NCBI RefSeq assembly: GCF_017348835.2
Contig: NZ_CP071375.1
Direction: 5' to 3' (one strand)
Source: Escherichia coli
GTDB lineage: Bacteria > Pseudomonadota > Gammaproteobacteria > Enterobacterales > Enterobacteriaceae
Length of the DNA stretch: 64,000 nucleotides
Shown here: positions 27,547 to 59,950 of the stretch, one piece after another
Layout: each line of letters opens with the position of its first letter
How positions within the stretch are numbered: position 1 is the stretch's first letter
Translations under genes and position numbers: made by a program
The notes under the pieces: model-generated
Database searches by the model: none
What the model was told of the DNA's origin: nothing
What the model saw: only the letters and a program-made list of their open reading frames with translations

Positions 27547-28476
27547 ATGCCGATTCGTGTGCCGGACGAGCTGCCCGCCGTCAATTTCTTGCGTGAAGAA
27601 AACGTCTTTGTGATGACAACTTCTCGTGCGTCTGGTCAGGAAATTCGTCCACTTAAGGTTCTGATCCTTAACCTGATGCCGAAGAAGATTGAAACTGAAA
27701 ATCAATTTCTGCGCCTGCTTTCAAACTCACCTTTGCAGGTCGATATTCAGCTGTTGCGCATCGATTCCCGTGAATCGCGCAACACGCCCGCAGAGCATCT
27801 GAACAACTTCTACTGTAACTTTGAAGATATTCAGGAACAGAACTTTGACGGTCTGATTGTAACCGGTGCGCCGCTGGGCCTGGTGGAGTTTAATGATGTC
27901 GCTTACTGGCCGCAGATCAAACAGGTGCTGGAGTGGTCGAAAGATCACGTCACCTCGACGCTGTTTGTCTGCTGGGCGGTACAGGCCGCGCTCAATATCC
28001 TCTACGGCATTCCTAAGCAAACTCGCACCGACAAACTCTCTGGCGTTTACGAGCATCATATTCTCCATCCTCATGCGCTTCTGACGCGTGGCTTTGATGA
28101 TTCATTCCTGGCACCACATTCGCGCTATGCTGACTTTCCGGCAGCGTTGATTCGTGATTATACCGATCTGGAAATTCTGGCAGAGACAGAAGAAGGAGAT
28201 GCGTATCTGTTTGCCAGCAAAGACAAGCGTATCGCCTTTGTGACGGGGCATCCGGAATACGACGCACATACGCTGGCGCAGGAATATTTCCGCGATGAGG
28301 AAGCCGGACTAAAACCGGATGTACCGTATAACTATTTTCCGCACAACGATCCGCAAAACAAACCGCGAGCGAGCTGGCGTAGTCACGGTAATTTGCTATT
28401 TACCAACTGGCTCAACTATTACGTCTACCAGATCACGCCATACGATCTGCGCCGTATGAATCCAACGCTGGATTAA
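27547..28476 (+). CDS. metA: Homoserine O-succinyltransferase
   Basis: 309-aa [26 protein letters not shown]... Confidence 0.95.
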
Positions 28477-28482
28477 TCCTTA

Positions 28483-28510
28483 CAGCTCCCGAAACTTCAT
28501 TCGGGAGCTG
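28483..28510. terminator. Hairpin between convergent metA and the dehydratase gene
   Basis: cagctcccgaa-acttca-ttcgggagctg, 11-bp stem. Confidence 0.6.
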
Positions 28511-28516
28511 TCTCTG

Positions 28517-29704
28517 TCAGGCCATCCGACAAGCTACTGGTGAATAATCGAAGGCTTTATAGGTCAGAACAAACTCTTTATGCCCCAGCCGCTCTGCGCT
28601 ACAAAGTTTACCGCTGCTGACTTCCTCAATGCAGTGCAACATATCGCTTGCGACATCATCAAGCGATGCACCTTCACTGATAATCCTGCCAGCATTAATA
28701 TCCATATCATCCGCCATATTGGCCCAGGTTTGTGGGTTGTTACAGACTTTAATCACTGGCGCAATTACGGAGCCGATCACTGAACCTCGTCCGGTGGTAA
28801 ACAAAATCATATGACATCCGGTAGCGATAAGTTCCATCGCTTCTGATGAGTCATTGATGTTGGGATAGCCGAAACGCGCTTCGCCGTCGGGAACCACATC
28901 CATCAGATACAGACCAGGGTAAGGGGCATGTTCTGTCGGGAGTAAAACGCCCTGAATAGGGCTATCGCCTGACTTTGTATAGGCACCCAGCGATTTTTCT
29001 TCTTGCGTGGTTAACCCGCCGACGGCGTTACCGTTAGAAAAACTGCCTAAACCCATTGTCGCGTAATAGCGTTTAGCTTTATCCATTGCTGCATCAATCG
29101 CCTCTCTGGCCGCAGGTGTCGCCGCTCGCGCCATCATGTGGCCTTCACAACCAATCAACTCGCCGCTCTCTTCAAAAATGCAGGTCGCGCCTTGTGCGAG
29201 GAGTCGATCAAACGCGCGACCTACGGCAGGATTGCCCGTAATGCCGCTGGTGCCGTCGGAACCGCCGCAAATCGTACCAATAACTAAATCACTGAACGCA
29301 ATCGGGCGAACCGCCACCTGCTTAATTTGCGCCAGCATCTCTGTGACACAAACTTTGCCCCGTTTGATGGTTTCTGTAGTTCCCTTATTTTCCTGGATAA
29401 CCAGCTTATGGCATGGGCGACCACTGGCGATGACATCTTCATAAAGTTTATCGCGATCAAAGTTTTCGCAGCCGAGGGCGATAATCAACACCGCACCAAC
29501 ATTGGGATGGGTCGCCAGTCCTTTTACCAGTCGGTAGCCGTAGTCCGTGGGGTAACAGCCGGAAAAACCAAAATACTGCACGTCTTCATTTGTGAAAGAC
29601 TCAGCGATCGCTTTGGCAACGTGGCTGGCGCATTCCACCATAAAGATGACTTGTACGCTGTTACGTATACCGACTCTGCCATCTTGTCTCATGTAACCCT
29701 GCAT
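28517..29704 (-). CDS. UxaA-family (altronate/galactarate-type) sugar-acid dehydratase, catalytic large subunit
   Basis: 395-aa ORF resembling the C-terminal catalytic part of altronate dehydratase; start ATG overlaps the upstream stop by 1 nt. Confidence 0.7.
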   Translation of the reverse strand: MQGYMRQDGRVGIRNSVQVIFMVECASHVAKAIAESFTNEDVQYFGFSGCYPTDYGYRLVKGLATHPNVGAVLIIALGCENFDRDKLYEDVIASGRPCHKLVIQENKGTTETIKRGKVCVTEMLAQIKQVAVRPIAFSDLVIGTICGGSDGTSGITGNPAVGRAFDRLLAQGATCIFEESGELIGCEGHMMARAATPAAREAIDAAMDKAKRYYATMGLGSFSNGNAVGGLTTQEEKSLGAYTKSGDSPIQGVLLPTEHAPYPGLYLMDVVPDGEARFGYPNINDSSEAMELIATGCHMILFTTGRGSVIGSVIAPVIKVCNNPQTWANMADDMDINAGRIISEGASLDDVASDMLHCIEEVSSGKLCSAERLGHKEFVLTYKAFDYSPVACRMA

Positions 29705-30024
29705 CAGGCCTCTCCTGCTGGCTCATAGCCCGCATTATCATGGTGGAATACGGCGATATAATCGCTGTTCAGGTTATGGGAATGGATATGCTCGCCAATA
29801 GGGATAGCCTGACTGGCAGAGCCAATGCCTGCGCCATATTTACGAACTTTATCGCCCTGACATAACGTTTCGATTGCCAGCTTATGCCCAAGAGCAACGT
29901 AGCTTTGTGCCACAAATTCACCACCGTCATAGTGGACGCGATCGCCTTGCTGAATATCTTCCAGGGCGACAACGCAGTTATCGAGTTTGTGTAATAGCAG
30001 AGCGCGTTTATTCATGTTCACCAA
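29704..30024 (-). CDS. SAF-domain small subunit of a UxaA-family dehydratase
   Basis: 106-aa ORF resembling the N-terminal SAF domain of UxaA-type dehydratases; TGATG overlap with the large subunit. Confidence 0.65.
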   Translation of the reverse strand: MVNMNKRALLLHKLDNCVVALEDIQQGDRVHYDGGEFVAQSYVALGHKLAIETLCQGDKVRKYGAGIGSASQAIPIGEHIHSHNLNSDYIAVFHHDNAGYEPAGEA

Positions 30025-30071
30025 CTCTCCTGGTTGTGGGGATACAGGCGACCCACAGGCCGCCCGACTGT

Positions 30072-30836
30072 TTAGAAACCGATCAGCGCGCCGCCATCGA
30101 CAATCAGAACCTGACCGCTAACGAAACCGGCAGCATCAGAAGCCAGATAGGTTGCAGCCCAGCCGATATCTTCTGGTTTGCCGAATTTTTTCATCGGTGT
30201 ACGACCAAGAATTTTATTTTTACGCTCATCGTCACCCTCAATGGCTTTGCGCAGCATTGGCGTATCAATCCAGCCCGGAGCGACGCCGTTAACGCGGATC
30301 CCTGCGCCAGAAAGTTCGGTTGCCATGCCATGAATCAGCCCGAGGTAGGCAGACTTCGCGGCAGCATAGCCGGTGACATAAGGTTGACCGAGGAACGATG
30401 TCATTGAGGCGGTAAAAAGCACACAGGCATTGCCATGCTGTTTCATATGAGGGACCAGCGAGCGAGTCAGAGCGAACGCGCCAACGACATGGACATCAAG
30501 AACCGATTCAAAATCAGCGACGCTCATCTCTTCGATCGGTTTTTTACAGTGATTTCCGGCGTTATTGACCAGAATATCGATCTGATTATGCTGGCTCAGA
30601 AGGCCGTCTACCCAACTTTCCGTCTCGTCAGTGTGGGCCACATTGAACTGGCTCCAGGATGCATTTGGCCCCAGCGACTCGGCAGCGTTTTTGGCAGCTT
30701 CGCCATTGAGATCGGCAATGATGACTTTTGCGCCACAGGCGATCATGCATTTAGCCATTGCATAGCCCAGGCCACTGGCGGAACCGGTGATCAGGGCAGT
30801 TTTATTTTCCAGTGAAAAGGGGTTATTCATCGTCAT
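30072..30836 (-). CDS. Short-chain dehydrogenase/reductase (SDR) oxidoreductase
   Basis: 254-aa ORF with TGSASGLG cofactor motif and YAAAK catalytic pair. Confidence 0.8.
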   Translation of the reverse strand: MTMNNPFSLENKTALITGSASGLGYAMAKCMIACGAKVIIADLNGEAAKNAAESLGPNASWSQFNVAHTDETESWVDGLLSQHNQIDILVNNAGNHCKKPIEEMSVADFESVLDVHVVGAFALTRSLVPHMKQHGNACVLFTASMTSFLGQPYVTGYAAAKSAYLGLIHGMATELSGAGIRVNGVAPGWIDTPMLRKAIEGDDERKNKILGRTPMKKFGKPEDIGWAATYLASDAAGFVSGQVLIVDGGALIGF

Positions 30837-30861
30837 GATTTTTTTCTCGTCAGATAAAGGG

Positions 30862-31875
30862 TTAGAGGTCGATTAAAATTTTGGTGAATGCGCCGGGATC
30901 GGCGGCCCAGTCGCTGAACGCCCGATCGGCAGTATCAATCGGGTAGTGCGCGGAAATAATTAGCTCAATGGGGTAGCACTGCTTTTCCATTAAAGAGAGA
31001 ACTGCTCTGAAATCGGCAACGGTGGCGTTGCGGGAACCACGGATATCCAGCTCTTTCATGAGGAAGCGCGCGCTCTCATAATTCACCGGTTTTTTCGCAT
31101 AGCCGACGTACACCACGCGCCCGCAGAAGGCAGCCAGCTCGACTGCCTGCTCGATGGTTTTATCCAGGCCAATGGCTTCAATCACCACCGCAGGACCGCG
31201 GTCTTCGTTCAGTTTCGCCAGGATCTCAGCAACATTTTCGCGTGCGCTGTTGATATACCTTTCGGCACCACATGCCTTCGCTACCGCCTGCTTACGATCG
31301 TCGATATCAATGGCTACCACGCGACCGCCCATCGCGTTAGCTGCTGCAATAGCGCCAAGACCAATCACGCCGCAGCCCATAACGACGACCCATTCGCCAA
31401 CATTGATTTGCGCCCGGCGCGCAGCGTGAAGACCAACGGCTAATGGTTCGACTAACGCCAGTTCGTCACTGGAAAGGGAATTACAGACAATGACTTTATT
31501 GGCCGGAATAGACAGCAGCGGCACCATACCGCCCTGGCGCTGAACGCCAAGAGTCTGGTTGTTTTTACAGGCATTCGGGCGACCGCTCAGACAGGAACTG
31601 CAATGACCGCATTCGGTACAGGGCAGAACAACAACACGATCGCCTTCCAGAATATGTTTAACCTGGCTGCCTGTTTGCAGGATCTTGCCGCCGATTTCAT
31701 GACCGGGAATGCAAGGATACTGCGTGAGGGGATTTAGCCCGCGCCAGGTATTTAAATCTGAACCGCATAAACCAACTCGTTCAACACGAATTAATACATG
31801 GTCGGCTGGGCAATCAGGTTCGGCGATATCAATAAATCGCGTTACGGAACCTTTATCAATGGCTAACGCTTTCAT
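30862..31875 (-). CDS. Zinc-dependent medium-chain alcohol/polyol dehydrogenase
   Basis: Start taken at MKALAIDKG (337 aa); GHEIGG zinc motif, structural-zinc Cys cluster CTECGHCSSC, GCGVIG Rossmann motif. Confidence 0.8.
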   Translation of the reverse strand: MKALAIDKGSVTRFIDIAEPDCPADHVLIRVERVGLCGSDLNTWRGLNPLTQYPCIPGHEIGGKILQTGSQVKHILEGDRVVVLPCTECGHCSSCLSGRPNACKNNQTLGVQRQGGMVPLLSIPANKVIVCNSLSSDELALVEPLAVGLHAARRAQINVGEWVVVMGCGVIGLGAIAAANAMGGRVVAIDIDDRKQAVAKACGAERYINSARENVAEILAKLNEDRGPAVVIEAIGLDKTIEQAVELAAFCGRVVYVGYAKKPVNYESARFLMKELDIRGSRNATVADFRAVLSLMEKQCYPIELIISAHYPIDTADRAFSDWAADPGAFTKILIDL

Positions 31876-31888
31876 ATAAAAACCTTTT

Positions 31889-33187
31889 TTAAAGTGAATC
31901 GGATGAAATAACAGAATCGGTATTTTTAATATTTCTCTTAATAGGTTTAACGCCAAAGGCTACCCCAAGAGCGCCGATTACCCCAATGGCACCCGCAAGA
32001 ATAAATGCAGCAATAAAACTATTGGTATATTGGACAATGAAGCCAGTTAAAATAGGGGCGATAATTCCCGAGGTGTTTGCCAGTAAATGTACAAAACCAC
32101 CAACGCCACCGACTTTATCAGGGGAAATATTATCGGAGACAATTGCCCACGGCGCGGCAGCGGCGAGATACATAAAGAAGATACCCATTGCCATTAACAT
32201 CACTGCATTTGTTACGGAGGCAACCTGACCCGCAAAACTGATACAAATAGCCGAGAGAATTAACCCTCCAACGATAATTAACTTTCTGGCCAGCAGCAGA
32301 TTTTTGGTTTTGCGATATAACCAGTCTGAAAACATACCGCCAATAGCAATACCAACGCTACCAATAATCCACGGAATGGCCGAGGCAATACTCATCTCCT
32401 GAATATTTAGTCCCTTTTCCATTGAGAGATAACTTGGAAACCAGGTTAAAAAGAAATACAGAATATAGTTAATAGAGAAGAATGCCAGGCCAGTGAACAG
32501 AACTATAGGCTGGGTCAGGTAGAAGATAAAAGGCACTTTGGCTGAGTCAGTGCCGTAGCCTGGCGCGCCTTTTTGCGCCTCATCATACTCGGCAATTTCT
32601 TCTTTCGATGTATGAGGGTTATTATGTGGACGATCGGTAAATGCTTTAATCCAGAAAAATGTCCAGATAAAACCCAGAGACATTAAAATGATAAAAGCGA
32701 TGCGCCAGTTCCACATCACCACGATTGCGCCAACAATCGGACCCGCAATCGCACCACCCAAAGGGTTGCCCGCGTTTGCGATGCCCACAGCTCTGGCGCG
32801 CTGATCAAGCGGAACCCAGTTACTAATGCATTTGTTGATCGTCGTACTAATCGGGCCTTCGCTCATCCCGAATAATACGCGCACGATAAACAAAGATATA
32901 TAACCGAAAGCGAGGCCAGTCAGCCCACAGAACAATGACCAGGAAAGCATTGCAATGGCAAAAACTTTGCGGGGACCATAGAGATCGGATAAATAGCCAC
33001 CAACAAAGTTAAATAATGCATAACCAAAGAAAAAACTACTCAGCATAATCCCAACTTCGGCTGGGTTTAGGCCAAAATGATCTTTGATATAGGGCATTGC
33101 CACAGAAAATGCCGCACGATCGAGATAATTAATTATTCCAGCGATAAACAGCAGGAATAATATTTTGGAATGCTGTCGTTTGAACAT
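31889..33187 (-). CDS. MFS transporter, anion:cation symporter type (hexuronate/aldonate-like)
   Basis: 432-aa ORF with many hydrophobic segments and NYLDRAAFSVAMP motif near the N-terminus; AT-rich coding sequence. Confidence 0.75.
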   Translation of the reverse strand: MFKRQHSKILFLLFIAGIINYLDRAAFSVAMPYIKDHFGLNPAEVGIMLSSFFFGYALFNFVGGYLSDLYGPRKVFAIAMLSWSLFCGLTGLAFGYISLFIVRVLFGMSEGPISTTINKCISNWVPLDQRARAVGIANAGNPLGGAIAGPIVGAIVVMWNWRIAFIILMSLGFIWTFFWIKAFTDRPHNNPHTSKEEIAEYDEAQKGAPGYGTDSAKVPFIFYLTQPIVLFTGLAFFSINYILYFFLTWFPSYLSMEKGLNIQEMSIASAIPWIIGSVGIAIGGMFSDWLYRKTKNLLLARKLIIVGGLILSAICISFAGQVASVTNAVMLMAMGIFFMYLAAAAPWAIVSDNISPDKVGGVGGFVHLLANTSGIIAPILTGFIVQYTNSFIAAFILAGAIGVIGALGVAFGVKPIKRNIKNTDSVISSDSL

Positions 33188-33254
33188 AGCAAGTCCTGCA
33201 TAAATAATTTATGTGAATAGTGGTAGGGTAGAATTAATAATTTAAATATATGAT

Positions 33255-33941
33255 CTACATCACACCGAACTTTTCAAATACTTCCACGGTGCTCATGCCA
33301 TTTTTTATCGCCAGACGAACATCACTTTCGGTTGCGACTTTATTCAGTGCTTCAGCTATTACCTCCTTTTCAACTTCTTTTGGAATAACTAAAAGACCAT
33401 CGCAGTCGCCATAAATAATATCGCCGGGATTTATCACCACACCGCAAACTTCAACCGGGACGTTATAATCAATGACTTTTCCTCGCGGCCCCTGATCCTG
33501 AGCATAAGTACCATAACTAAATGTGGGGAAATTAATATCAAGAATTTCTTTAGAGTCCCGGACATAACCATCAAGAACAGCACCGGCGGCCTTAAGATGC
33601 ATAGCGCGAGTGGACATTAAACCGCCCCATAATGCGTAACGTAGCGAACTTCCTGTCGCAATATAAACATCGTTTTCTTTCAGCGAATCCAGCGCCTCAA
33701 ACATAATACCGAACGGTTTTTTACCAATTGCTGTATTCCCCGACGATGAGTGCAACTCATAAACATCGGCTTCAAGAACAGGCATAGCCCGCCCTGCGAG
33801 AACCATACTGGAGTGTAAAGGTTTCATTGAAGGAGAAACAAACTGATGCAAATATCCTTTGGTATCAAGAATATCGCCAACAACGGCAGTAAATAACTGC
33901 GTACGCATCAACTGAAAAAGTTCCTTGTCATTGTTCCACAT
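33255..33941 (-). CDS. RraA-like / class II aldolase-decarboxylase family protein
   Basis: 228-aa ORF; length and sequence resemble the RraA/HMG-CHA aldolase fold rather than 161-aa RraA itself. Confidence 0.6.
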   Translation of the reverse strand: MWNNDKELFQLMRTQLFTAVVGDILDTKGYLHQFVSPSMKPLHSSMVLAGRAMPVLEADVYELHSSSGNTAIGKKPFGIMFEALDSLKENDVYIATGSSLRYALWGGLMSTRAMHLKAAGAVLDGYVRDSKEILDINFPTFSYGTYAQDQGPRGKVIDYNVPVEVCGVVINPGDIIYGDCDGLLVIPKEVEKEVIAEALNKVATESDVRLAIKNGMSTVEVFEKFGVM

Positions 33942-33992
33942 AATTAACGATCCTGAATTGTAGTGAGGAGGTGTGAACAGAGACTAGAGTAG

Positions 33993-34025
33993 AACCTATA
34001 AACCTGTCAAACAGGTTTATAGGTT
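33993..34025. promoter_or_regulatory. Perfect 15-bp inverted repeat, candidate operator in the divergent promoter region
   Basis: AACCTATAAACCTGT-caa-ACAGGTTTATAGGTT, 52 bp upstream of the RraA-like gene start and ~210 bp upstream of the GntR-type regulator gene. Confidence 0.55.
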
Positions 34026-34236
34026 GAAGAGTGTAAACGATCGCACTCTGCGAGCCTCTTCACAATTTCAGCTATGGTTTACTGCGATCGCTTTTCAACC
34101 GGATGCGTCCTATCGCTGCTACGCCTTTTTCGGTAACATACGAACCAAAGGTAGGAGGGATTATCTGTAACGCTATGATTTTTAAGTTTTAGATAAGATA
34201 TGTTGCGGCTGAAACAGGTAATATCTGCTCGGTAAA

Positions 34237-34965
34237 TTGATGGCAAGAATGATGACAACGAAAATTCAGCTAGAAAGTAACACGCTCTCAGCCCAGGTAC
34301 GAGACTACATACTGTCGTTAATTGCGCGGCAAAAGTTAACCGTCGGGATGCCGGTGCCCAGTGAAATGCAACTTACCCAGGAACTTGGCGTCAGTAAGGG
34401 CGTTGTCCGTGAGGCCTATCGTTCACTTGCCGCCCTTGGAATACTCGAAACCAAAAGTGGTAAAGTGCCACGCATTAAAGCCTTTGATTCTAGCGTGTTG
34501 CAGGTCATTTTTTCCTTTGCGACGCTGACCGAGCAGGTCAGTTCTTCACAGATACTTGCCGCCAGACGTTGGCTGGAAGCCGGATGCGTACAAATGGCGG
34601 CGCTCAATGGAGATGAAGAGGATTTTGCTGCGCTGAAGCAAGAAATGTCGTTGATACGCGAAGAGTTTTCTGACACCGAGCGTTTCCTGGAACATGATTT
34701 AAATTTCCATTTGCTGTTATCGCAGGCATCTAAAAATCCTTTATTCAGCATTCTGTTGCAGGCTTTACACACCCAGTTAACCCACTCAATGCGAGCGGGT
34801 CTGGAAGCACAACGCAATAATCATGAATATGAGCGTGGGATAATTGCATTGCACCAACGTGTTTGTGACTGTGTTTGTAATCGCGATGCTGAAGGTGCGA
34901 TGAAAGCCATGGATGAGCATTTCAACCTCTCTTCTGATGCTTTAAACAATCAGTCTCCTCTTTAA
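34237..34965 (+). CDS. GntR/FadR-family transcriptional regulator
   Basis: 242-aa ORF with N-terminal winged-HTH (QLTQELGVSKGVVREAYRSLAALGILE) and a C-terminal helical ligand domain; divergent from the catabolic genes. Confidence 0.8.
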   Translation: MMARMMTTKIQLESNTLSAQVRDYILSLIARQKLTVGMPVPSEMQLTQELGVSKGVVREAYRSLAALGILETKSGKVPRIKAFDSSVLQVIFSFATLTEQVSSSQILAARRWLEAGCVQMAALNGDEEDFAALKQEMSLIREEFSDTERFLEHDLNFHLLLSQASKNPLFSILLQALHTQLTHSMRAGLEAQRNNHEYERGIIALHQRVCDCVCNRDAEGAMKAMDEHFNLSSDALNNQSPL

Positions 34966-34989
34966 TTAAGCGATTCAGCACCTTATCTC

Positions 34990-35013
34990 AGGCACCTTCG
35001 GGTGCCTTTTTTG
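34990..35013 (+). terminator. Rho-independent terminator after the GntR-type regulator gene
   Basis: aggcacc-ttcg-ggtgcct followed by TTTTTT. Confidence 0.8.
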
Positions 35014-35213
35014 TACCCGAAACGCCCTTCATAAAGTGAATGTTTTTTATTTATATTGTTATCAATAAGTTATCAAGTATTTTTAATTAAAATGGAAATT
35101 GTTTTTGATTTTGCATTTTAAATGAGTAGTCTTAGTTGTGCTGAACGAAAAGCGCACAACGATCCTTCGTTCACAGTGGGGAAGTTTTCGGATCCATGAC
35201 GAGGAGCTGCACG

Positions 35214-36815
35214 ATGACTGAACAGGCAACAACAACCGATGAACTGGCTTTCACAAGGCCTTATGGCGAGCAGGAGAAGCAAATTCTTACTGCCGAAGCG
35301 GTAGAATTTCTGACTGAGCTGGTGACGCATTTTACGCCACAACGCAATAAACTTCTGGCGGCGCGTATTCAGCAGCAGCAAGATATTGATAACGGAACGT
35401 TGCCTGATTTTATTTCGGAAACAGCTTCCATTCGTGATACAGACTGGAAAATTCGTGGTATTCCCGCGGACTTACAAGATCGTCGAGTCGAGATAACTGG
35501 CCCGGTTGAGCGCAAGATGGTGATCAACGCACTCAACGCCAATGTGAAAGTCTTTATGGCCGATTTCGAAGATTCACTGGCACCAGACTGGAACAAAGTG
35601 ATCGACGGGCAAATAAACCTGCGTGATGCAGTTAACGGCACCATCAGCTATACCAATGAAGCAGGCAAAATTTATCAGCTCAAGCCCAATCCAGCGGTTT
35701 TGATTTGTCGGGTACGCGGTCTGCACTTGCCGGAAAAACATGTCACCTGGCGTGGTGAGGCAATCCCCGGTAGCCTGTTTGATTTTGTGCTCTATTTCTT
35801 CCACAACTATCAGGCACTGTTGGCAAAGGGCAGCGGTCCCTATTTCTATCTGCCGAAAACCCAGTCCTGGCAGGAAGCGGCCTGGTGGAGCGAAGTCTTC
35901 AGCTATGCAGAAGATCGCTTTAATCTGCCGCGCGGCACCATCAAGGCGACGTTGCTGATTGAAACGCTGCCCGCCGTGTTCCAGATGGACGAAATCCTTC
36001 ACGCACTGCGTGACCATATTGTTGGTCTGAACTGCGGTCGTTGGGATTACATCTTCAGTTATATCAAAACGTTGAAAAACTATCCCGATCGCGTCCTGCC
36101 AGACAGACAGGCAGTGACGATGGATAAACCATTCCTGAATGCTTACTCACGCCTGTTAATCAAAACCTGCCATAAACGCGGTGCTTTTGCGATGGGCGGC
36201 ATGGCGGCGTTTATTCCGAGCAAAGATGAAGAGCGCAATAACCAGGTGCTCAACAAAGTAAAAGCGGATAAATCGCTGGAAGCCAACAACGGTCACGATG
36301 GCACATGGATCGCTCACCCAGGCCTTGCGGATACGGCAATGGCGGTATTCAACGACATTCTCGGCTCCCGTAAAAATCAGCTTGAAGTGATGCGCGAACA
36401 AGACGCGCCGATTACTGCCAATCAGCTACTGGCACCTTGTGATGGTGAACGCACCGAAGAAGGTATGCGCGCCAACATTCGCGTGGCTGTGCAGTACATC
36501 GAAGCGTGGATCTCCGGCAACGGCTGCGTGCCGATTTATGGCCTGATGGAAGATGCGGCGACGGCTGAAATTTCCCGTACCTCGATCTGGCAGTGGATCC
36601 ATCATCAAAAAACGTTGAGCAATGGCAAACCGGTGACCAAAGCCTTGTTCCGCCAGATGCTGGGCGAAGAGATGAAAGTCATTGCCAGCGAACTGGGCGA
36701 AGAACGTTTCTCCCAGGGGCGTTTTGACGATGCCGCACGCTTGATGGAACAGATCACCACTTCCGATGAGTTAATTGATTTCCTGACCCTGCCAGGCTAC
36801 CGCCTGTTAGCGTAA
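35214..36815 (+). CDS. aceB: Malate synthase A
   Basis: 533 aa from [21 protein letters not shown]; first gene of aceBAK. Confidence 0.95.
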
Positions 36816-38332: not shown

Positions 38333-42224
<3,892 letters not shown>

Positions 42225-50258: not shown

Positions 50259-51488
50259 TTAATCATGGGAAATTGCCTCTGCATGAGTGAGCAGATATTG
50301 CTCCGCCTCACCGGACCAGATCCCCTGATGACGCGCCAGAATCGCCGCCAGTGCTTGATCCTGAATCTGCGTGAGTGACGTCAGCGGCAGGTATTTCTCG
50401 GTATACACCAGCTTTTTGCCGCCGCCGACGGCAGGCAATTCAAGCGTGGTTTCGCCCGCGGCATTCAGCCCAAGAATATGTGTTACCACTTTTGCGGCCT
50501 GCACTTTTTTCTCTTCGATCAGTTTGACCGCCGCGCGCATGTCGTCGGTATTGCCGCCTGACGTGCCCACGTAGTGGGTAAATGCATAATGCACATCGTA
50601 GAAATTAATTGGCGCGCTGAAATGTTTATCCTGCGGTCCGGCGAAGAAATTCAGGCAACCATCTGTCGCCAGCAAGGAAGAGGCGAGAGTCACCAGTCCT
50701 TCATTAGGCACAAAGACGAAAATATCATCGAAGCCGTGACCGCCACTCAGCGCCATTAGCGTATCAAATGCTGCATCGGTGGCATTGAGATAATGAATCA
50801 GTGTTTGCGGTTCTGATGGATAGTGCTTGCGCGCATAACTCAATTTATCGTTGTCGGTATCGGTAATGACGAGCAGCGACGGGTTAACGGGTCCATGTAG
50901 CGCATAATCAATCGCCAACAGTCCCATTGGTCCGGTGCCGCCGAGGATCAGCGTGCGCCCTTGCGGGCGAATCCCCATCGTGTGGTTATAACTACCTTCC
51001 TGAAGATGATAGTTGGCGTTGAACGCGCCAATCACGCAGGAAAGTGGTTCAACCAGCGAGCCTTCAAAATAGGTTTCGCCGTCGTATGCCAGCAGGCAAT
51101 CTTGTTCCATGACCTCGTTGGGAATAACCACATGCGTGGCTTCGCCGCCCACCCACGGGAAGGAGTAGCCGGGGCAGTCCGGGCGATCCGGCAATTGCAG
51201 GTTGGCCTGAATCACATAACGCTGACCCGGCTGGAATTTGTGCTGCCACTTTTTACCCACGGCCAGAATATCGCCGCAAAACTCGTGGCCGATGATGATT
51301 GGGTTGGTCGCCACATCGTCGGGTACTTTTTTATGGTTTTCACCCAGGTTGGCCTCTTTCCAGGAAGAGAGGCACAGGCTGTCAGTGACCACCGTCGCGA
51401 GGATTTCATCCTCCTGCATTTCAGGAAGGTCAAAGGTTTCCAGGCGTAAATCACGTTTACCATAAAGACGCAGAGCTGTTGTTTTCAT
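50259..51488 (-). CDS. sorE: Zinc-dependent dehydrogenase, sorbose-1-phosphate reductase-like
   Basis: Start taken at MKTTALRLYG with GAGGTG RBS (409 aa); GHEFCG zinc motif; last gene of a sor-type operon. Confidence 0.7.
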   Translation of the reverse strand: MKTTALRLYGKRDLRLETFDLPEMQEDEILATVVTDSLCLSSWKEANLGENHKKVPDDVATNPIIIGHEFCGDILAVGKKWQHKFQPGQRYVIQANLQLPDRPDCPGYSFPWVGGEATHVVIPNEVMEQDCLLAYDGETYFEGSLVEPLSCVIGAFNANYHLQEGSYNHTMGIRPQGRTLILGGTGPMGLLAIDYALHGPVNPSLLVITDTDNDKLSYARKHYPSEPQTLIHYLNATDAAFDTLMALSGGHGFDDIFVFVPNEGLVTLASSLLATDGCLNFFAGPQDKHFSAPINFYDVHYAFTHYVGTSGGNTDDMRAAVKLIEEKKVQAAKVVTHILGLNAAGETTLELPAVGGGKKLVYTEKYLPLTSLTQIQDQALAAILARHQGIWSGEAEQYLLTHAEAISHD

Positions 51489-51539
51489 AAACCACCTCAT
51501 GTTGAGCGATGGCCCCGGCAGTCGTGCCGGGGCGAAGAA

Positions 51540-52394
51540 TCAGGACAGGAAGCCCAGCGCATTGCCGATAATCCCTAAGCCAAACAGGGCGAAAATCAGC
51601 CATACCGGGTTAATTTTTTTGTTGAGCAGACGAACCATTAGTAGCGTCAGACCGAGCGCCAGCAAACCAGGGCAAAGTTGGTCGAGAATGTTCTGCACGG
51701 TCATGATGACGGTGGAGCCATCGGCGGCATGCGTTTGTGAAACCACCAACGGTACGTTGATTGACGTCCATTTGGTGACCAGCACGCCCATCACAAACAG
51801 TCCGAGAATCGACGCGCCTTCGGTGAGTTTTTGCAGCAAATTACCGCCCATATCGCTGACGATATTCACCCCTTTGCGAAAGCCGAGCTGGAGGCCATAC
51901 CACTTCATCGCCAGACGCACCGCGTTGAAAATAAAGAAGAACAGCAGCGGGCCGAGAATGTTGCCCGAAAGTGCCAGAGATGCGCCGAGCGCGGCGGTAA
52001 TCGGGCGCAGCGTTCCCCAGACCAGTGGATCGCCAACCCCTGCCAATGGTCCCATCAGACCGACTTTGATGCCGTTAATGGTGCCGTCATCAATTTCCGC
52101 GCCGTTGGCCCGCGCCTCTTCCATGGCGGCAGTGACGCCGATGACCGGGCCACATACGGCTGGCGTGGTATTGAAGAACACCAGGTGTCGCCTGAGCGCC
52201 GCAACCTGATCCTCTTTTAATGGGTAAAGTCGCTTGATGGCGGGGATCATGTCGTAGCAAAAGCCCAGCCCGTGAATACGTTCAAAGTTAAAGGACGCCT
52301 GTTGCAGGTTGGAGCGCAGAAACATGCTCACCAGATCGCTGCGTGTAATTTTTCTCTGTTCCATGATGGCTCCGTTAATCGTCAAGTTGGTCAA
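51540..52394 (-). CDS. sorM: PTS mannose/sorbose-family EIID component
   Basis: 284-aa hydrophobic ORF; start may be the internal MEQRK at 52364. Confidence 0.8.
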   Translation of the reverse strand: MTNLTINGAIMEQRKITRSDLVSMFLRSNLQQASFNFERIHGLGFCYDMIPAIKRLYPLKEDQVAALRRHLVFFNTTPAVCGPVIGVTAAMEEARANGAEIDDGTINGIKVGLMGPLAGVGDPLVWGTLRPITAALGASLALSGNILGPLLFFFIFNAVRLAMKWYGLQLGFRKGVNIVSDMGGNLLQKLTEGASILGLFVMGVLVTKWTSINVPLVVSQTHAADGSTVIMTVQNILDQLCPGLLALGLTLLMVRLLNKKINPVWLIFALFGLGIIGNALGFLS

Positions 52395-53172
52395 GGGCGG
52401 TGGAAGCGGGGGCCTGGAGCTGAGGTTCAGCTTTACGCCACTGTGGATTTAACTGGATGTAGACCAGGGCCATGATCACGCCGACGCCACCGAACGCCAG
52501 CAGACTGAGATCGAGGTAGCCACCTGCGAGGAAACCGAGGAAAAAGAAAGGCATCAAATATTTCACGCCCATCATACGTAGCACCATGGCGTAACCGACC
52601 ACCACGATAAAACCGCCAGCAATCTGTAGTCCTCGGGTCACAAATTCGGGAATGGCGTTTAACATATTGCTCACCATATCGGCGCTGACGAACAGCGAGA
52701 CAATCAGTGCCGGAACAGCAACGCGCAGCGCCTGCACGCCAAGCGCGGAGACATGCAGAATATCGAGAGTGCGAAACCGTGCTTCTTCCGCTGCTTTATC
52801 CGCCGCGTGCTGGAACACTACGGTGATGGTACGTGCAAACACCGTCAGCACCTGGCCTGCCGCAGCCACAGGCAACGCGATGGCGATTCCGGTGGCGATG
52901 CTTTGCTGACCAACGATAACCAGAATGGCGGAGATTATGCTGGCGAGTGCAGAATCCGGAGATTGCGCCGCGCCGACGTTCATCCAGCCGAGAGCTATCA
53001 ATTCCAGCGTACCACCGAGTATTATTCCGGTTTTTAAATCACCGAGAATTAAACCAATCACCGTACAGGCAATTAACGGGCGATGAGTCTGGAATTCATC
53101 CAGCACGCTGCCCATTCCGGCAATACAGGAAAAAAGAAATATAGCAATAATTTGTAGGGTACTTATTTCCAT
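52375..53172 (-). CDS. sorA: PTS mannose/sorbose-family EIIC component
   Basis: 265-aa integral membrane ORF MEISTLQIIAIFLFSCIAGMGSVLDEF... Confidence 0.8.
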   Translation of the reverse strand: MEISTLQIIAIFLFSCIAGMGSVLDEFQTHRPLIACTVIGLILGDLKTGIILGGTLELIALGWMNVGAAQSPDSALASIISAILVIVGQQSIATGIAIALPVAAAGQVLTVFARTITVVFQHAADKAAEEARFRTLDILHVSALGVQALRVAVPALIVSLFVSADMVSNMLNAIPEFVTRGLQIAGGFIVVVGYAMVLRMMGVKYLMPFFFLGFLAGGYLDLSLLAFGGVGVIMALVYIQLNPQWRKAEPQLQAPASTALDQLDD

Positions 53173-53237
53173 GATTTGTCACCTTTTAAGTGTCGTCATC
53201 CCTGCCTGTTAAAGCATATGTACACAGGCGCTATTAT

Positions 53238-53732
53238 TTAATTTGCGATTAACTGTTCGTTTATTTTGTCGATAATATTGATTGAGGGATCTGACGCTAC
53301 GACGCGTAAATCCAGTATGACGCCAAGATTATTTAACTCATGAAATGCGTTAATATCATCATCATCTAATGAAACCGCTTTGGTTAACTGTTTTTTACCG
53401 GGCCGCCAGGCCATGCCGCCAATATTCAGGGTGCCTATTTTTACCCCCTGGCGAACCATCGCTAAGGCATCCTGTGGGCGAGTGAAAAGATAAAAAACGG
53501 TTTCGTCCTGATATTGCGGGTTGTGATAAACCGCGACGGCTTTTTCAATATTGACCACGTTAACCTTCATTCCCGGTGGCGCAGCCTGACGCAATAATGT
53601 CCGGCGAACTTCATCGTTATAAACTTCGTCATTGCAGATAATAATGCGCTGGGCGTTAGCCACTTTCGACCAGACGGTAGTGACCTGACCGTGGATCAGG
53701 CGGTCATCAATGCGGGCGAGCGTAATGTTCAT
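53238..53732 (-). CDS. sorB: PTS mannose/sorbose-family EIIB component
   Basis: 164-aa ORF with the IIB-Man signature ARIDDRLIHGQV (phospho-His). Confidence 0.85.
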   Translation of the reverse strand: MNITLARIDDRLIHGQVTTVWSKVANAQRIIICNDEVYNDEVRRTLLRQAAPPGMKVNVVNIEKAVAVYHNPQYQDETVFYLFTRPQDALAMVRQGVKIGTLNIGGMAWRPGKKQLTKAVSLDDDDINAFHELNNLGVILDLRVVASDPSINIIDKINEQLIAN

Positions 53733-54139
53733 CAGAAATCCTCCTCTGCCGTTGCCACCTGTCTCCAGACGACGCAGGATTGCTTTGCGATTTGCGTCAG
53801 GTGTTCACACAGTTCATCAACATTCATGCTGTCCTGGTTATCAACCAGTTCGAGCGCCAGCGGCAGAGAAAGGCCGCTGATTACCCGCAAACGAGGATTG
53901 CGCATCGCAAGCATCGCTGCCGCATTCCACGGGCTGCCGCACTGTAAATCCACGGCAATCAGCCACTCATCTTGATTGTGAATGCTTACTAACTTTTCCA
54001 GCTTTACCACAATGTCTCCGGCGTTTTCACCGGGCACAAATTCAACGGCTTCAACATTGGCGTTGCCGTAAACCATCTGAACCGATTCCAGCATGGCGCA
54101 AGCTAATTTGCCGTGGGCACAAAAAATGGCGTTGACCAT
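53732..54139 (-). CDS. sorF: PTS mannose/sorbose-family EIIA component
   Basis: 135-aa ORF MVNAIFCAHGKLA... (IIA-Man N-terminal His); 1-nt overlap with sorB. Confidence 0.8.
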   Translation of the reverse strand: MVNAIFCAHGKLACAMLESVQMVYGNANVEAVEFVPGENAGDIVVKLEKLVSIHNQDEWLIAVDLQCGSPWNAAAMLAMRNPRLRVISGLSLPLALELVDNQDSMNVDELCEHLTQIAKQSCVVWRQVATAEEDF

Positions 54140-54148
54140 AAAGCCTCC

Positions 54149-54955: not shown

Positions 54956-55024
54956 AACAGACTCCTGATTTTAGATAATAGGGACCCGCCGTAATTTTTA
55001 TTACGATAAACATCGGGAAGATTT

Positions 55025-59121: not shown

Positions 59122-59126
59122 GTAAC

Positions 59127-59918: not shown

Positions 59919-59933
59919 TGCCCGGCGTTATTT
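59908..59933. terminator. Bidirectional terminator-like hairpin between convergent genes
   Basis: cgccgggc-gtga-gcccggcg followed by TTATTT; spans the nucleotidyltransferase stop codon. Confidence 0.6.
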
Positions 59934-59950
59934 CAGGTCATCAGCTTTTA

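What the first reader, a model, noticed from the sequence alone, without database searches (positions are those of the whole stretch)
28511..34990. Sugar-acid catabolic cluster inserted between metA and aceB
From memory, metA and aceB are near-adjacent in K-12. Here they are separated by a six-gene catabolic unit plus a divergent GntR/FadR regulator. The gene set is a split UxaA-type dehydratase, SDR, Zn-dehydrogenase, ACS-type MFS transporter and RraA-like aldolase, with no sugar-acid kinase. This suggests uptake, redox steps, dehydration to a 2-keto-3-deoxy acid and direct non-phosphorylative aldol cleavage. The substrate is not identifiable from sequence.
Basis: partly seen in the sequence, partly recalled or inferred. 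Interest (0 to 1): 0.65.

Follow-up and report, generated by a model that had tools for sequence, protein, structure and literature searches.

The report
Rare sugar-acid catabolic gene islet
A 6.5-kb, seven-gene accessory cluster between metA and aceB, found in only 2 of 5,426 complete E. coli genomes, most likely imports an L-aldonic sugar acid (best guess L-galactonate or L-fuconate), converts it to a 2-keto-3-deoxy acid and splits that with an uncharacterised RraA-fold enzyme; the gene set is real and biochemically untested, but it is a variant of a known pathway.

Summary
Window 28479-34965 (6,487 bp) replaces 18 bp of the K-12 metA-aceB spacer. It carries an intact six-gene operon (RraA-like, ACS-type MFS, Zn-dehydrogenase, SDR, two-subunit UxaA-type dehydratase) and a divergent GntR/FadR regulator. 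Only 2 of 5,426 complete E. coli genomes have it, both from pigs. The gene set is not unique: a version 75-80% identical in protein sequence, with a TRAP transporter, lies next to gltA in 661 of 5,426 E. coli genomes. The MFS version occupies the same metA-aceB site in Citrobacter.

Comparative context gives a pathway. The binding protein of the TRAP version is about 70% identical to PDB 4OVT. Orthologues of that protein and of the Zn-dehydrogenase also sit in a canonical UxaB + UxaA cluster. So the SDR replaces UxaB and the split dehydratase replaces UxaA: L-aldonate, then 5-keto acid, then D-altronate, then a KDG-type acid.

The RraA-like protein belongs to a very conserved orthogroup. In 43 of 57 informative loci it lies next to KDG-forming enzymes, almost never next to KdgK or Eda, and it keeps the aldolase catalytic residues. 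A pyruvate-releasing cleavage is likely but unproven. I found no published characterisation. Verdict: new variant of a known kind, moderate interest.

The parts
28479..34965 (.). Whole accessory islet (6,487 bp) that is absent from K-12. GC content is 47.9% against 51.5% for the window.
   Evidence: BLASTN against K-12 metA-aceB; GC content; present in 2 of 5,426 complete E. coli genomes.
28483..28510 (.). Inverted repeat CAGCTCCCGAA...TTCGGGAGCTG between the convergent metA and dehydratase genes. It is probably a two-way terminator.
   Evidence: Read directly from the sequence. The simple terminator scan did not report it, so this is an inference.
28517..29704 (-). Large subunit of a two-subunit UxaA/GarD-family dehydratase (395 aa). 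Proposed function: D-altronate (or 6-deoxy-altronate) dehydratase.
   Evidence: Matches the NCBIfam galactarate dehydratase model over profile positions 180-492, below cut-off. PDB 6U7L GarD, E = 5e-32. 30% identical to K-12 UxaA. Homologues carry PF04295 + PF20629.
29704..30015 (-). Small (SAF-domain) subunit of the dehydratase (103 aa). Its stop codon overlaps the start codon of the large subunit by 1 nt.
   Evidence: Matches the N-terminal 78 positions of the GarD model. 40% identical to the N-terminus of K-12 UxaA. Homologues carry PF08666 SAF.
30072..30836 (-). Classical SDR (254 aa). Proposed function: 5-keto-aldonate (D-tagaturonate/D-fructuronate) reductase, a functional replacement of UxaB.
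   Evidence: Carries the TGSASGLG and YAAAK motifs (sequence). Nearest named families are gluconate 5-dehydrogenase, KduD and glucose 1-dehydrogenase. 38% identical to K-12 IdnO. SDRs at least 40% identical always lie with a split UxaA, or with UxaC + UxuA.
30862..31875 (-). Zn-dependent medium-chain dehydrogenase (337 aa). Proposed function: L-aldonate 5-dehydrogenase (LgoD-like).
   Evidence: Carries the GHE motif, a C-x2-C-x2-C-x7-C motif and GxGxxG (sequence). The best K-12 relative is LgoD at 35%. 48% identical to the Zn-dehydrogenase of the Brucella UxaB/UxaA/TRAP cluster.
31889..33187 (-). ACS-family MFS transporter (432 aa). Proposed function: sugar-acid:H+ importer.
   Evidence: TIGR00893 D-galactonate transporter subfamily, 333 bits, below cut-off. 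30% identical to K-12 LgoT. A TRAP DctPQM system replaces it in the gltA-linked E. coli version.
33255..33941 (-). RraA-fold protein (228 aa) and first gene of the operon. Proposed function: metal-dependent pyruvate-releasing lyase acting on the 2-keto-3-deoxy acid (KDG, KDPG or the 6-deoxy analogue).
   Evidence: PF03737 in the 99%-identical P0121. R128, D129 and E205 align with Arg123, Asp124 and Glu199 of the HMG/CHA aldolase 3NOJ and are invariant in the orthogroup. The neighbourhood statistics support this role.
33993..34025 (.). Perfect 15+15 palindrome AACCTATAAACCTGT-caa-ACAGGTTTATAGGTT, 52-84 bp upstream of the RraA-like start codon. Candidate operator of the GntR/FadR regulator.
   Evidence: the repeat finder. 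The core CCTGT...ACAGG recurs upstream of the RraA-like gene in the SE15, Sodalis and Buttiauxella versions.
34240..34965 (+). Divergent GntR/FadR-subfamily regulator (241 aa). Its stop codon is the last base of the islet.
   Evidence: NCBIfam hits to NanR, LldR and GlcC, all below cut-off. Homologues carry PF00392 + PF07729. 62-67% identical to the regulators of the SE15 and Sodalis versions.
28065..28464 (.). Left recombination tract at the 3' end of metA. It is 92-93.5% identical to K-12, against 98-100% further out.
   Evidence: Sliding identity profile.
34966..35565 (.). Right recombination tract covering the metA terminator remnant, the aceB promoter and the 5' end of aceB. Blocks are 92-92.5% identical to K-12.
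   Evidence: Sliding identity profile.

Best explanation
The islet is a self-contained, GntR/FadR-repressed operon for an acidic sugar.

Proposed steps:
1. The ACS-type MFS carrier imports an L-aldonate. The best guess is L-galactonate and/or its 6-deoxy form L-fuconate.
2. The Zn-dehydrogenase oxidises C5 to give the 5-keto acid (D-tagaturonate, or its 6-deoxy analogue).
3. The SDR reduces it with opposite stereochemistry to D-altronate. This is the same dehydrogenase + reductase logic as IdnD/IdnO and LgoD/UxaB.
4. [quoted passage not shown]
5. The RraA-fold enzyme is a metal-dependent class II pyruvate lyase. It cleaves that product, or its 6-phosphate, to pyruvate plus glyceraldehyde, lactaldehyde or glyceraldehyde 3-phosphate.

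What is shown: the gene content, the intactness of the genes, the orthology relations, the neighbourhood statistics and the conservation of catalytic residues.

What is inferred: every enzymatic step, the substrate, and the operator.

My estimates for the parts are:
- route to a 2-keto-3-deoxy acid through a 5-keto intermediate: about 0.7
- RraA-like protein releases pyruvate from a KDG-type acid: about 0.5
- physiological substrate is L-galactonate or L-fuconate: about 0.45
For: 1. Module equivalence.
- The TRAP version of the cluster in E. coli SE15 is 75-80% identical to the window enzymes.
- Its binding protein is 68-73% identical to PDB 4OVT (Ochrobactrum anthropi Oant_3902) and 42% identical to 4O8M (Actinobacillus succinogenes).
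- Both belong to the EFI set of TRAP binding proteins 'with known ligands'.
- PMC5507952 reports that Vetting et al. 2015 found dual L-fuconate/L-galactonate specificity for a different TRAP transporter, encoded in the Chromohalobacter salexigens lgoD-uxaA-uxaB locus.
- The Brucella orthologue of Oant_3902 lies in UxaB | GntR-UxaA(full length)-ZnADH-DctPQM.
- A Phyllobacteriaceae binding protein 77-79% identical to the Brucella one lies in GntR-ZnADH-SDR-DctPQM-RraA-SAF-UxaA(large).
- The two Zn-dehydrogenases are 75% identical to each other and 48% identical to the window's.
- So the SDR stands where UxaB stands, and the split dehydratase stands where UxaA stands.

2. Uronate versions.
- Propionivibrio has a glucuronate/galacturonate-type binding protein (best PDB matches 4N15, 4N17 and 4N8Y) plus UxaC-SDR-SAF-UxaA-RraA and no Zn-dehydrogenase.
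- Maribellus and Labilibacter have RraA-UxaC-SDR-x-UxuA.
- After the isomerase UxaC, a keto-uronate reductase is needed, and the SDR is the only candidate.

3. Precedent. The route L-galactonate, D-tagaturonate, D-altronate, KDG has been shown biochemically in Luteolibacter and is described for E. coli (PMC12632266).

4. The RraA-like protein.
- The orthogroup is 59-82% identical across Proteobacteria and Bacteroidota and was found in at least 542 stretches of the species-level genome set.
- In 43 of 57 loci with at least 5 kb on both sides, a homologue of a KDG-forming enzyme lies within 10 kb (UxuA family 32, split UxaA 8, KduI 3).
- KdgK occurs in 3 of those loci and Eda in none.
- R128, D129, E205 and G106 align with the essential Arg123, the metal ligands Asp124 and Glu199, and Gly101 of HMG/CHA aldolase. 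All are invariant in the orthogroup.

5. Operon signals.
- Gaps between the operon genes range from a 1-nt overlap to 67 bp.
- A conserved palindrome lies upstream of the first gene in four enterobacterial versions.
Against: - No enzyme of this cluster or of its close homologues has been assayed. Six literature searches found nothing.
- Identity to characterised enzymes is low: LgoD 35%, UxaA 30%, IdnO 38%, HMG/CHA aldolase about 25%.
- E. coli K-12 already converts L-galactonate with LgoT/LgoD and UxaB/UxaA (PMC12632266) and carries kdgK and eda. For L-galactonate the islet would therefore be redundant and the aldolase unnecessary. This hints that the true substrate or product differs, for example a 6-deoxy acid.
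- The ligands of 4OVT and 4O8M are taken from my memory. The PDB titles returned were cut off before the ligand name.
- The window has an MFS carrier, not the TRAP system, so specificity may differ.
- The only characterised sugar-acid enzyme of the RraA family, FlDet, is a dehydratase/decarboxylase and not an aldolase.
- About a quarter of the orthogroup loci (Variovorax and others) show no KDG-forming neighbour.
Confidence: 0.55

Rival explanations
1. Direct-dehydration L-fuconate/L-galactonate route of the Xanthomonas/Campylobacter type.
1. The split UxaA enzyme dehydrates L-fuconate (or L-galactonate) itself to L-2-keto-3-deoxyfuconate.
2. The SDR oxidises C4 to the 2,4-diketo acid.
3. The RraA-fold enzyme replaces the FAH-family hydrolase and releases pyruvate plus L-lactate (or glycerate).
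4. The Zn-dehydrogenase is auxiliary.
For: - C. jejuni Cj0482 (88 aa) and Cj0483 (389 aa) form the same split UxaA architecture. They are proposed to convert L-fuconate to 2-oxo-3-deoxy-L-fuconate in a kinase-free pathway (PMC9100392).
- The oxidative L-fucose pathway uses a COG1028 SDR and a COG0179 hydrolase for its last two steps (PMC5507952).
- NCBIfam has a model for a FAH family protein (NF009399) whose profile positions 339-475 match the RraA-like region of this protein.
- The 4OVT-like binding protein may bind L-fuconate (from memory).
Against: - It gives no role to the Zn-dehydrogenase, yet that enzyme is orthologous (75%) between the RraA-type cluster and the canonical UxaB + UxaA cluster with the same binding protein.
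- It leaves the Propionivibrio, Maribellus and Labilibacter clusters without the reductase needed after UxaC.
- The known L-KDF 4-dehydrogenase is not among the top 60 PDB matches of the SDR.
Confidence: 0.15
2. Phosphorylative variant. The steps up to KDG are as in the best explanation, but KDG is phosphorylated by the chromosomal KdgK. The RraA-fold enzyme is then a class II KDPG aldolase that duplicates or replaces Eda.
For: - A KdgK homologue (38-42% identical to E. coli KdgK) is encoded in the locus in three alphaproteobacterial genomes (L027, L056, L091); in L027 it directly follows the RraA-like gene. No Eda homologue is present in any of the three.
- HMG/CHA aldolase is activated more than 10-fold by inorganic phosphate bound near Arg123 (PMC5065237). 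This shows that the fold has an anion site beside the catalytic centre.
- E. coli K-12 has kdgK.
Against: - KdgK is absent from 54 of the 57 informative loci.
- Many of those are complete-looking sugar-to-aldonate-to-dehydratase clusters, where a kinase would be expected if it were required.
- In E. coli, Eda already does this job.
Confidence: 0.15
3. Aldarate or oxidative route. The split dehydratase acts like GarD on an aldarate, and the RraA-fold enzyme acts like FlDet, dehydrating and decarboxylating 2-keto-3-deoxy-glucarate to alpha-ketoglutarate semialdehyde.
For: - FlDet of Flavobacterium sp. UMI-01 is an RraA-family protein with exactly this activity (PMC8563752).
- The only NCBIfam model hit by the dehydratase is galactarate dehydratase.
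- FlDet aligns over 215 residues at 29% identity, E = 4e-12.
Against: - No alpha-ketoglutarate-semialdehyde dehydrogenase (ALDH) is present in the islet or among the recurrent neighbours.
- The recurrent neighbours are UxaC, UxuA, KduI and LgoD-like enzymes, which make KDG and not an aldarate product.
- 29% identity is no closer than to the aldolases.
- The GarD hit is far below cut-off (168 against 731 bits).
Confidence: 0.07
4. The split UxaA-family enzyme is a sulfolactate sulfo-lyase (SuyAB type), and the cluster degrades a C3 sulfonate.
For: The only support is the two-subunit architecture, which SuyAB shares within the UxaA family. This rests on my own knowledge and was not tested with a SuyAB sequence.
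Against: There is no sulfite exporter or other sulfonate gene. The contexts contain uronate isomerase, uronate- and aldonate-type binding proteins and LgoD-like dehydrogenases.
Confidence: 0.02

Closest known systems
E. coli L-galactonate pathway (LgoT, LgoR, LgoD, then UxaB, UxaA, KdgK, Eda)
   Same: It has an ACS-type MFS importer, a GntR-family regulator, a Zn-dependent aldonate 5-dehydrogenase, reduction to D-altronate and a UxaA-family dehydration to KDG. The Zn-dehydrogenase's best K-12 relative is LgoD at 35%. The pathway logic is confirmed biochemically in Luteolibacter (PMC12632266).
   Different: Here all steps are in one operon. UxaB (mannitol-dehydrogenase family) is replaced by a classical SDR. 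UxaA is split into SAF and catalytic subunits (30% identity). KdgK and Eda are not encoded, and an RraA-fold enzyme is added.
gltA-linked TRAP-type cluster of E. coli B2/F-type strains (e.g. SE15 ECSF_RS03380-03420, CE10)
   Same: It has the same regulator, RraA-like protein, Zn-dehydrogenase, SDR and split dehydratase, 61-80% identical to the window products. It also carries the same upstream palindrome core.
   Different: It uses a DctPQM TRAP transporter in place of the MFS carrier. It sits at a different chromosomal site (abrB-gltA), has a different gene order and is common (661 of 5,426 genomes). It is also uncharacterised.
L-idonate pathway IdnD/IdnO
   Same: A Zn-dehydrogenase and an SDR together invert C5 of an aldonate through a 5-keto intermediate. 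The SDR is 38% identical to IdnO.
   Different: The Idn pathway ends in gluconate plus a kinase (IdnK). It has no dehydratase and no aldolase.
Campylobacter jejuni L-fucose cluster (Cj0481-Cj0490)
   Same: It has a two-subunit UxaA-family dehydratase (88 + 389 aa) in a kinase-free route that ends in an aldolase (PMC9100392).
   Different: Its aldolase is of DapA type, not RraA type. Its substrate is the neutral sugar, with FucP, a lactonase and an aldehyde dehydrogenase.
HMG/CHA aldolase (LigK/GalC/ProA; PDB 3NOJ), a class II pyruvate aldolase with RraA fold
   Same: The fold is the same. Equivalents of the essential Arg123, the metal ligands Asp124 and Glu199, and Gly101 are conserved.
   Different: Identity is only about 25% over 143 residues (47 bits). 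His75 and Asp102 are not conserved. The context is sugar-acid genes, not aromatic-ring cleavage genes.
FlDet, RraA-family 2-keto-3-deoxyglucarate dehydratase/decarboxylase (Flavobacterium sp. UMI-01)
   Same: It belongs to the RraA family, acts on a 2-keto-3-deoxy sugar acid and keeps the DG-x-x-RD motif.
   Different: Identity is 29%. FlDet is paired with an alpha-ketoglutarate-semialdehyde dehydrogenase, which is absent here.

Membership tests
UxaA/GarD dehydratase family (SAF + GD_AH domains) | An N-terminal SAF domain followed by the GD_AH second and C-terminal domains (Pfam PF08666, PF04295, PF20629). | tested here: met
   The small ORF matches GarD model positions 4-78 and the large ORF matches positions 180-492. 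Homologues 77-91% identical carry PF04295 + PF20629, and the Sodalis small subunit carries PF08666. Here the domains are on two polypeptides.
UxaA/GarD dehydratase family | Equivalog-level identity with galactarate dehydratase (NCBIfam TIGR03248 cut-off 730.85 bits). | tested here: not met
   167.6 and 29.3 bits. It belongs to the family but is not GarD.
UxaA/GarD dehydratase family | Fe2+-dependent dehydration of D-altronate. | not testable with these tools
   This needs an enzyme assay. It is only 30% identical to K-12 UxaA.
RraA-like / class II HMG-CHA pyruvate aldolase | RraA-like fold (Pfam PF03737). | tested here: met
   PF03737 is precomputed for P0121, which is 99% identical. PDB hits include 3NOJ, 2C5Q, 1J3L and 3C8O.
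RraA-like / class II HMG-CHA pyruvate aldolase | The catalytic Arg123 and the metal ligands Asp124 and Glu199 (P. putida numbering). | tested here: met
   R128, D129 and E205 align with them (roles from PMC5065237). They are invariant in 16 orthologues.
RraA-like / class II HMG-CHA pyruvate aldolase | [quoted passage not shown] | tested here: not met
   76.8 and 72.5 bits. It is not an orthologue of LigK.
RraA (RNase E regulator) | Equivalog score for RraA (NF006875 cut-off 136 bits) and a length of about 160 aa. | tested here: not met
   49.6 bits. The protein is 228 aa, with an N-terminal extension.
Zn-dependent medium-chain dehydrogenase; L-galactonate 5-dehydrogenase LgoD | Catalytic and structural zinc motifs and a GxGxxG Rossmann motif. 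| tested here: met
   The sequence contains GLCGSD, PGHEIGG, CTECGHCSSCLSGRPNAC and GCGVIGLG.
Zn-dependent medium-chain dehydrogenase; L-galactonate 5-dehydrogenase LgoD | Orthology with E. coli LgoD. | tested here: inconclusive
   LgoD is the best K-12 hit but at only 35%. The protein is 48% identical to the Zn-dehydrogenase of a UxaB + UxaA + TRAP cluster. The equivalence is by context, not by sequence.
Classical SDR; 5-keto-aldonate reductases (IdnO, Ga5DH, KduD) | The TGxxxGxG cofactor motif and the S...YxxxK catalytic motif. | tested here: met
   The sequence contains TGSASGLG and YAAAK. It passes only the broad 'glucose 1-dehydrogenase' subfamily cut-off (222 against 215 bits). It is below cut-off for IdnO, Ga5DH and KduD.
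GntR family, FadR subfamily | An N-terminal GntR winged helix plus a C-terminal FCD domain. | tested here: met
   Homologues carry PF00392 + PF07729. The best NCBIfam hits are NanR, LldR and GlcC, all below cut-off.
Canonical isomerase (Ashwell) / L-galactonate pathway | KDG kinase and KDPG aldolase complete the pathway. | tested here: not met
   The islet has no KdgK or Eda homologue. Both exist elsewhere in E. coli K-12. This strain was not checked.
SuyAB sulfolactate sulfo-lyase | Sequence orthology to SuyA/SuyB and linkage to sulfite export and sulfonate genes. | not tested
   No SuyAB sequence was available. The context argues against it.

The most novel reading that the evidence does not exclude
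The 228-aa RraA-fold protein founds a new, widespread enzyme family: a class II (metal-dependent) aldolase for 2-keto-3-deoxy-D-gluconate and its 6-deoxy analogue. The family was found in at least 542 stretches of the species-level genome set, across Proteobacteria, Bacteroidota and others.

This would make hexuronate, L-galactonate, L-fuconate and mannose catabolism independent of KdgK and Eda. In this E. coli it would open a route for L-fuconate, a 6-deoxy acid that cannot be phosphorylated at C6.
Probability: 0.35. Interest if true: 0.65.

Novelty: new variant of a known kind. Interest (0 to 1): 0.5.

Why it matters
If the model is right, three things follow.

1. A very conserved and so far unassigned RraA-fold orthogroup gets a function at the KDG node of sugar-acid metabolism. 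It is currently mislabelled 'HMG aldolase', 'RNase E regulator' or 'demethylmenaquinone methyltransferase' in thousands of genomes. This would change pathway reconstruction for pectin, ulvan, alginate and mannan degraders as well as for enterobacteria.

2. E. coli would have a second, kinase-independent route for L-aldonates. It would come in two transporter versions: a TRAP version in 12% of complete genomes and an MFS version in 0.04%. This is relevant to niche adaptation in the gut, where fucose- and galacturonate-derived acids occur.

3. The locus is a clean example of a metabolic islet kept at one chromosomal site across genera and moved within Escherichia by flanking homologous recombination, without any mobility gene.

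If the model is wrong, the cluster is still an ordinary accessory catabolic operon.

Tried and rejected
- Literature. Searches on RraA + UxaA + aldolase, RraA + 2-keto-3-deoxy, the RefSeq product names, HMG aldolase + mannonate/altronate/KDG, RraA + mutant fitness, and six WP_ accessions found no paper on this cluster or orthogroup. The GapMind paper does not mention altronate, fuconate or PF03737.
- Vetting et al. 2015 holds the ligand table for Oant_3902 and Asuc_0158. I could not read it by DOI or by PMC id. A search for the PDB codes found only irrelevant papers.
- To get the PDB titles, I modelled the SE15 binding protein (pLDDT 74) and ran Foldseek against the PDB. 4OVT and 4O8M came first, but the titles were cut off just before the ligand name.
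- The idea that the RraA-like protein equals FlDet was tested with the sequence from the paper's supplement. Identity is only 29%. I kept it as a minor rival.
- The SuyAB idea was considered and dropped on context.
- Mobile-element origin. The islet has no integrase, IS element or direct repeats. There is no close plasmid copy; the best plasmid matches are 64-67% identical fragments.
- Recent transfer from Citrobacter was rejected because the islet is as diverged (81.4%) as the flanking core genes (82-84.5%).
- The promoter and terminator scan gave no more hits than shuffled sequence.

Full report
OBSERVATION

The window carries, on the minus strand between metA (27547-28476) and aceB (35214-36815), six tightly packed genes and one divergent regulator.
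- RraA family protein, 33255-33941
- MFS transporter, 31889-33187
- zinc-binding alcohol dehydrogenase, 30862-31875
- SDR, 30072-30836
- two 'UxaA family hydrolase' genes, 29704-30015 and 28517-29704, which overlap by one base
- a FadR/GntR regulator on the plus strand, 34240-34965

Alignment with K-12 MG1655 shows 97.7% identity up to 28478 and again from 34966. So 6,487 bp stand in place of 18 bp of the K-12 spacer. All products are full length compared with their homologues.

DISTRIBUTION AND ORIGIN

- Megablast finds the islet in 2 of 5,426 complete E. coli genomes (PE164 and F2_81, both from pigs).
- The exact proteins occur on roughly 33-98 public contigs each (depending on the protein), named E. 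coli where a name is given. Members of the same 90% clusters come from the Citrobacter freundii complex.
- In Citrobacter (CP057824.1) the same seven genes, in the same order, lie between metA and aceBAK. A metagenomic contig shows the same junction.
- The islet is 81.4% identical between the window and Citrobacter. The flanking metA and aceB are 82-84.5% identical. The islet is therefore as old as the site, not a recent import from Citrobacter.
- In the window, about 400 bp to the left and about 600 bp to the right of the islet are only 92-93.5% identical to K-12, against 98-100% further away. That is the signature of homologous recombination with a donor about 8% diverged.
- The islet contains no integrase, IS element or direct repeat, and there is no close plasmid copy.

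A SECOND, COMMON VERSION IN E. COLI

The best named relatives of the RraA-like protein include a 77%-identical E. coli protein with hundreds of member sequences. Its locus lies between abrB and gltA. It encodes GntR | RraA-like, Zn-dehydrogenase, SDR, SAF subunit, large subunit and DctPQM. This 8-kb cluster is present in 661 of 5,426 complete genomes. Its enzymes are 75-80% identical to those of the window (the SAF subunit 61%), and its regulator is 62% identical. The window therefore holds the rare MFS-transporter form of a gene set that is already frequent in E. coli.

WHAT THE PROTEINS ARE

- Family searches place them in the UxaA/GarD dehydratase family (split into SAF and catalytic parts), classical SDRs nearest to the gluconate 5-dehydrogenase, KduD and glucose 1-dehydrogenase families, Zn-dependent medium-chain dehydrogenases, ACS-type MFS carriers, the RraA-like fold, and FadR-type GntR regulators. 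The SDR passes only the broad glucose 1-dehydrogenase subfamily cut-off (222 against 215 bits); no other protein reaches any curated cut-off.
- The best solved relatives are GarD (6U7L), RspB, threonine dehydrogenase and GatD, SDRs of the Ga5DH and 7-alpha-HSDH type, and, for the RraA-like protein, 5IR2, 3K4I, yeast YER010C and the HMG/CHA aldolase 3NOJ.
- Against K-12 the best relatives are LgoD (35%), UxaA (30%), IdnO (38%) and LgoT (30%).

PATHWAY FROM COMPARATIVE CONTEXT

1. The core RraA-like + SDR + SAF + large subunit recurs in:
   - Sodalis and Buttiauxella
   - Succinivibrionaceae
   - Rhizobium
   - Phyllobacteriaceae
   - Pedobacter and Pontibacter
   - rumen Bacteroidales

   The transporter differs between them (MFS, TRAP or ABC), and the Zn-dehydrogenase is sometimes absent.
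2. The binding protein of the SE15 TRAP version is 68-73% identical to PDB 4OVT (Ochrobactrum anthropi Oant_3902) and 42% identical to 4O8M (Actinobacillus succinogenes).
   - Both are in the EFI set of TRAP proteins with known ligands.
   - From memory, 4OVT holds L-fuconate and 4O8M holds L-galactonate. The titles returned were cut before the ligand name.
   - PMC5507952 records that Vetting et al. found dual L-fuconate/L-galactonate specificity for another TRAP transporter, the one encoded in the Chromohalobacter salexigens lgoD-uxaA-uxaB locus.
3. The Brucella orthologue of Oant_3902 is encoded in UxaB | GntR, full-length UxaA, Zn-dehydrogenase, DctPQM. This is the canonical L-galactonate enzyme set.
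   - A binding protein 77-79% identical to it in Phyllobacteriaceae is encoded with Zn-dehydrogenase, SDR, RraA-like, SAF and the large subunit.
   - The two Zn-dehydrogenases are 75% identical to each other and 48% identical to the window's.
   - Hence the SDR substitutes for UxaB, and the split enzyme substitutes for UxaA.
4. Where the Zn-dehydrogenase is missing, a uronate isomerase is present instead.
   - Propionivibrio has a glucuronate/galacturonate-type binding protein and UxaC.
   - Maribellus and Labilibacter have RraA-UxaC-SDR-x-UxuA.
   - After UxaC a keto-uronate reductase is required, and the SDR is the only candidate.
5. The chemistry L-galactonate, D-tagaturonate, D-altronate, KDG is established (PMC12632266).

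THE RraA-LIKE PROTEIN

- Its orthogroup is unusually conserved: 59-82% identity between Proteobacteria and Bacteroidota, and a mean column identity of 76%. A scan of one genome per species gave at least 542 confirmed stretches.
- I clustered all ORFs of the best 80 loci, annotated the recurrent families and scored reference enzymes.
- Of the 57 loci with at least 5 kb on both sides, 43 have a homologue of a KDG-forming enzyme within 10 kb: UxuA family 32, split UxaA 8, KduI with GH88 3. KdgK is present in 3 and Eda in none.
- Residues R128, D129, E205 and G106 align with Arg123 (essential, enolate stabilisation), Asp124 and Glu199 (metal ligands) and Gly101 of the P. putida HMG/CHA aldolase. 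All are invariant in the orthogroup.
- The protein therefore most likely releases pyruvate from the 2-keto-3-deoxy product.
- Open points:
  - Whether the substrate is KDG, KDPG or a 6-deoxy analogue is open. E. coli's own KdgK and Eda make a plain KDG aldolase redundant. That is an argument for a 6-deoxy (L-fuconate-derived) substrate, which cannot be phosphorylated at C6.
  - The one characterised sugar-acid enzyme of this fold, FlDet, is a dehydratase/decarboxylase (PMC8563752) and is 29% identical.

REGULATION

- A perfect 15+15 palindrome (33993-34025, core AAACCTGT-N3-ACAGGTTT) lies 52-84 bp upstream of the first operon gene.
- Closely related palindromes lie upstream of the RraA-like gene in the SE15, Sodalis and Buttiauxella versions.
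- The GT-N-AC core fits FadR-type GntR operators (established knowledge). I take it as the operator of the divergent regulator. This is an inference.

COMPARISON WITH KNOWN SYSTEMS

The cluster works like the E. coli L-galactonate/Ashwell route and like the IdnD/IdnO epimerising pair. It differs in three ways:
- an SDR stands in place of UxaB
- the dehydratase has two subunits, an architecture shared with C. jejuni Cj0482/Cj0483 (PMC9100392)
- an RraA-fold lyase stands in place of KdgK + Eda

I found no publication on it.

VERDICT

The finding is real. The system is a new variant of a known kind. Its most interesting element is the unassigned RraA-fold orthogroup.

Noticed in passing
L012 (E. 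coli SE15 NC_013654.1 715488-723293); also L008, L009, L018: A TRAP-transporter version of the same gene set lies between abrB and gltA in 661 of 5,426 complete E. coli genomes. It occupies the position where I recall K-12 having the ybgOPQD fimbrial genes. It is unannotated beyond family names.
   Followed up: yes
window 28065-28464 and 34966-35565: The flanks next to the islet are 92-93.5% identical to K-12, against 98-100% further out. These are recombination tracts from a donor about 8% diverged. The donor was not identified.
   Followed up: partly
L104 (Citrobacter CP057824.1) and L101 (Logan SRR28408695 contig): The same seven genes sit between metA and aceBAK in the Citrobacter freundii complex. 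The islet is as diverged (81.4%) as the flanking core genes (82-84.5%).
   Followed up: yes
L021, L024, L029, L034, L040, L043, L060-L063, L069, L075, L076, L086, L094 (about 10 kb around position 10001): In marine Flavobacteriia and Marinilabiliales the RraA-like orthologue is embedded in GH38 alpha-mannosidase, sugar porter, SDR, lactonase, enoyl-CoA hydratase, CoA-transferase and UxuA-family dehydratase loci. This looks like an oxidative, kinase-free mannose route. The role of the CoA enzymes is unexplained.
   Followed up: partly
L030, L037, L046 (Variovorax), L031, L064: In Burkholderiales the RraA-like orthologue lies with a GntR regulator and a polar-amino-acid-type ABC transporter, and there is no recognisable KDG-forming enzyme. 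This does not fit the KDG model.
   Followed up: no
L027 10682-11584; also L056 and L091: A KdgK homologue (38-42% identical to E. coli KdgK) is encoded in these loci beside the RraA-like gene; in L027 (Tabrizicola) it directly follows it. No Eda homologue is present. The RraA-like enzyme may act on the phosphorylated acid there.
   Followed up: partly
window 40038-42224 (-): The type III effector gene espL4 lies between aceK and iclR, according to the PE164 annotation.
   Followed up: no
window 57994-60880: A three-gene islet between lysC and yjbD encodes a slipin family protein, a DNA polymerase beta superfamily (nucleotidyltransferase) protein and a zeta toxin family protein. It may be a toxin-antitoxin or defence module.
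   Followed up: no
window 50259-55972 (-): An L-sorbose PTS operon lies between rluF and pepE. It comprises a regulator, an SDR, IIA-IID components and sorE. It is another accessory sugar locus in the same window.
   Followed up: no
window about 3098-3627: yjaZ is annotated as frameshifted in the 99.99%-identical PE164 record. The window differs from PE164 by a 12-nt indel inside the rrn operon.
   Followed up: no
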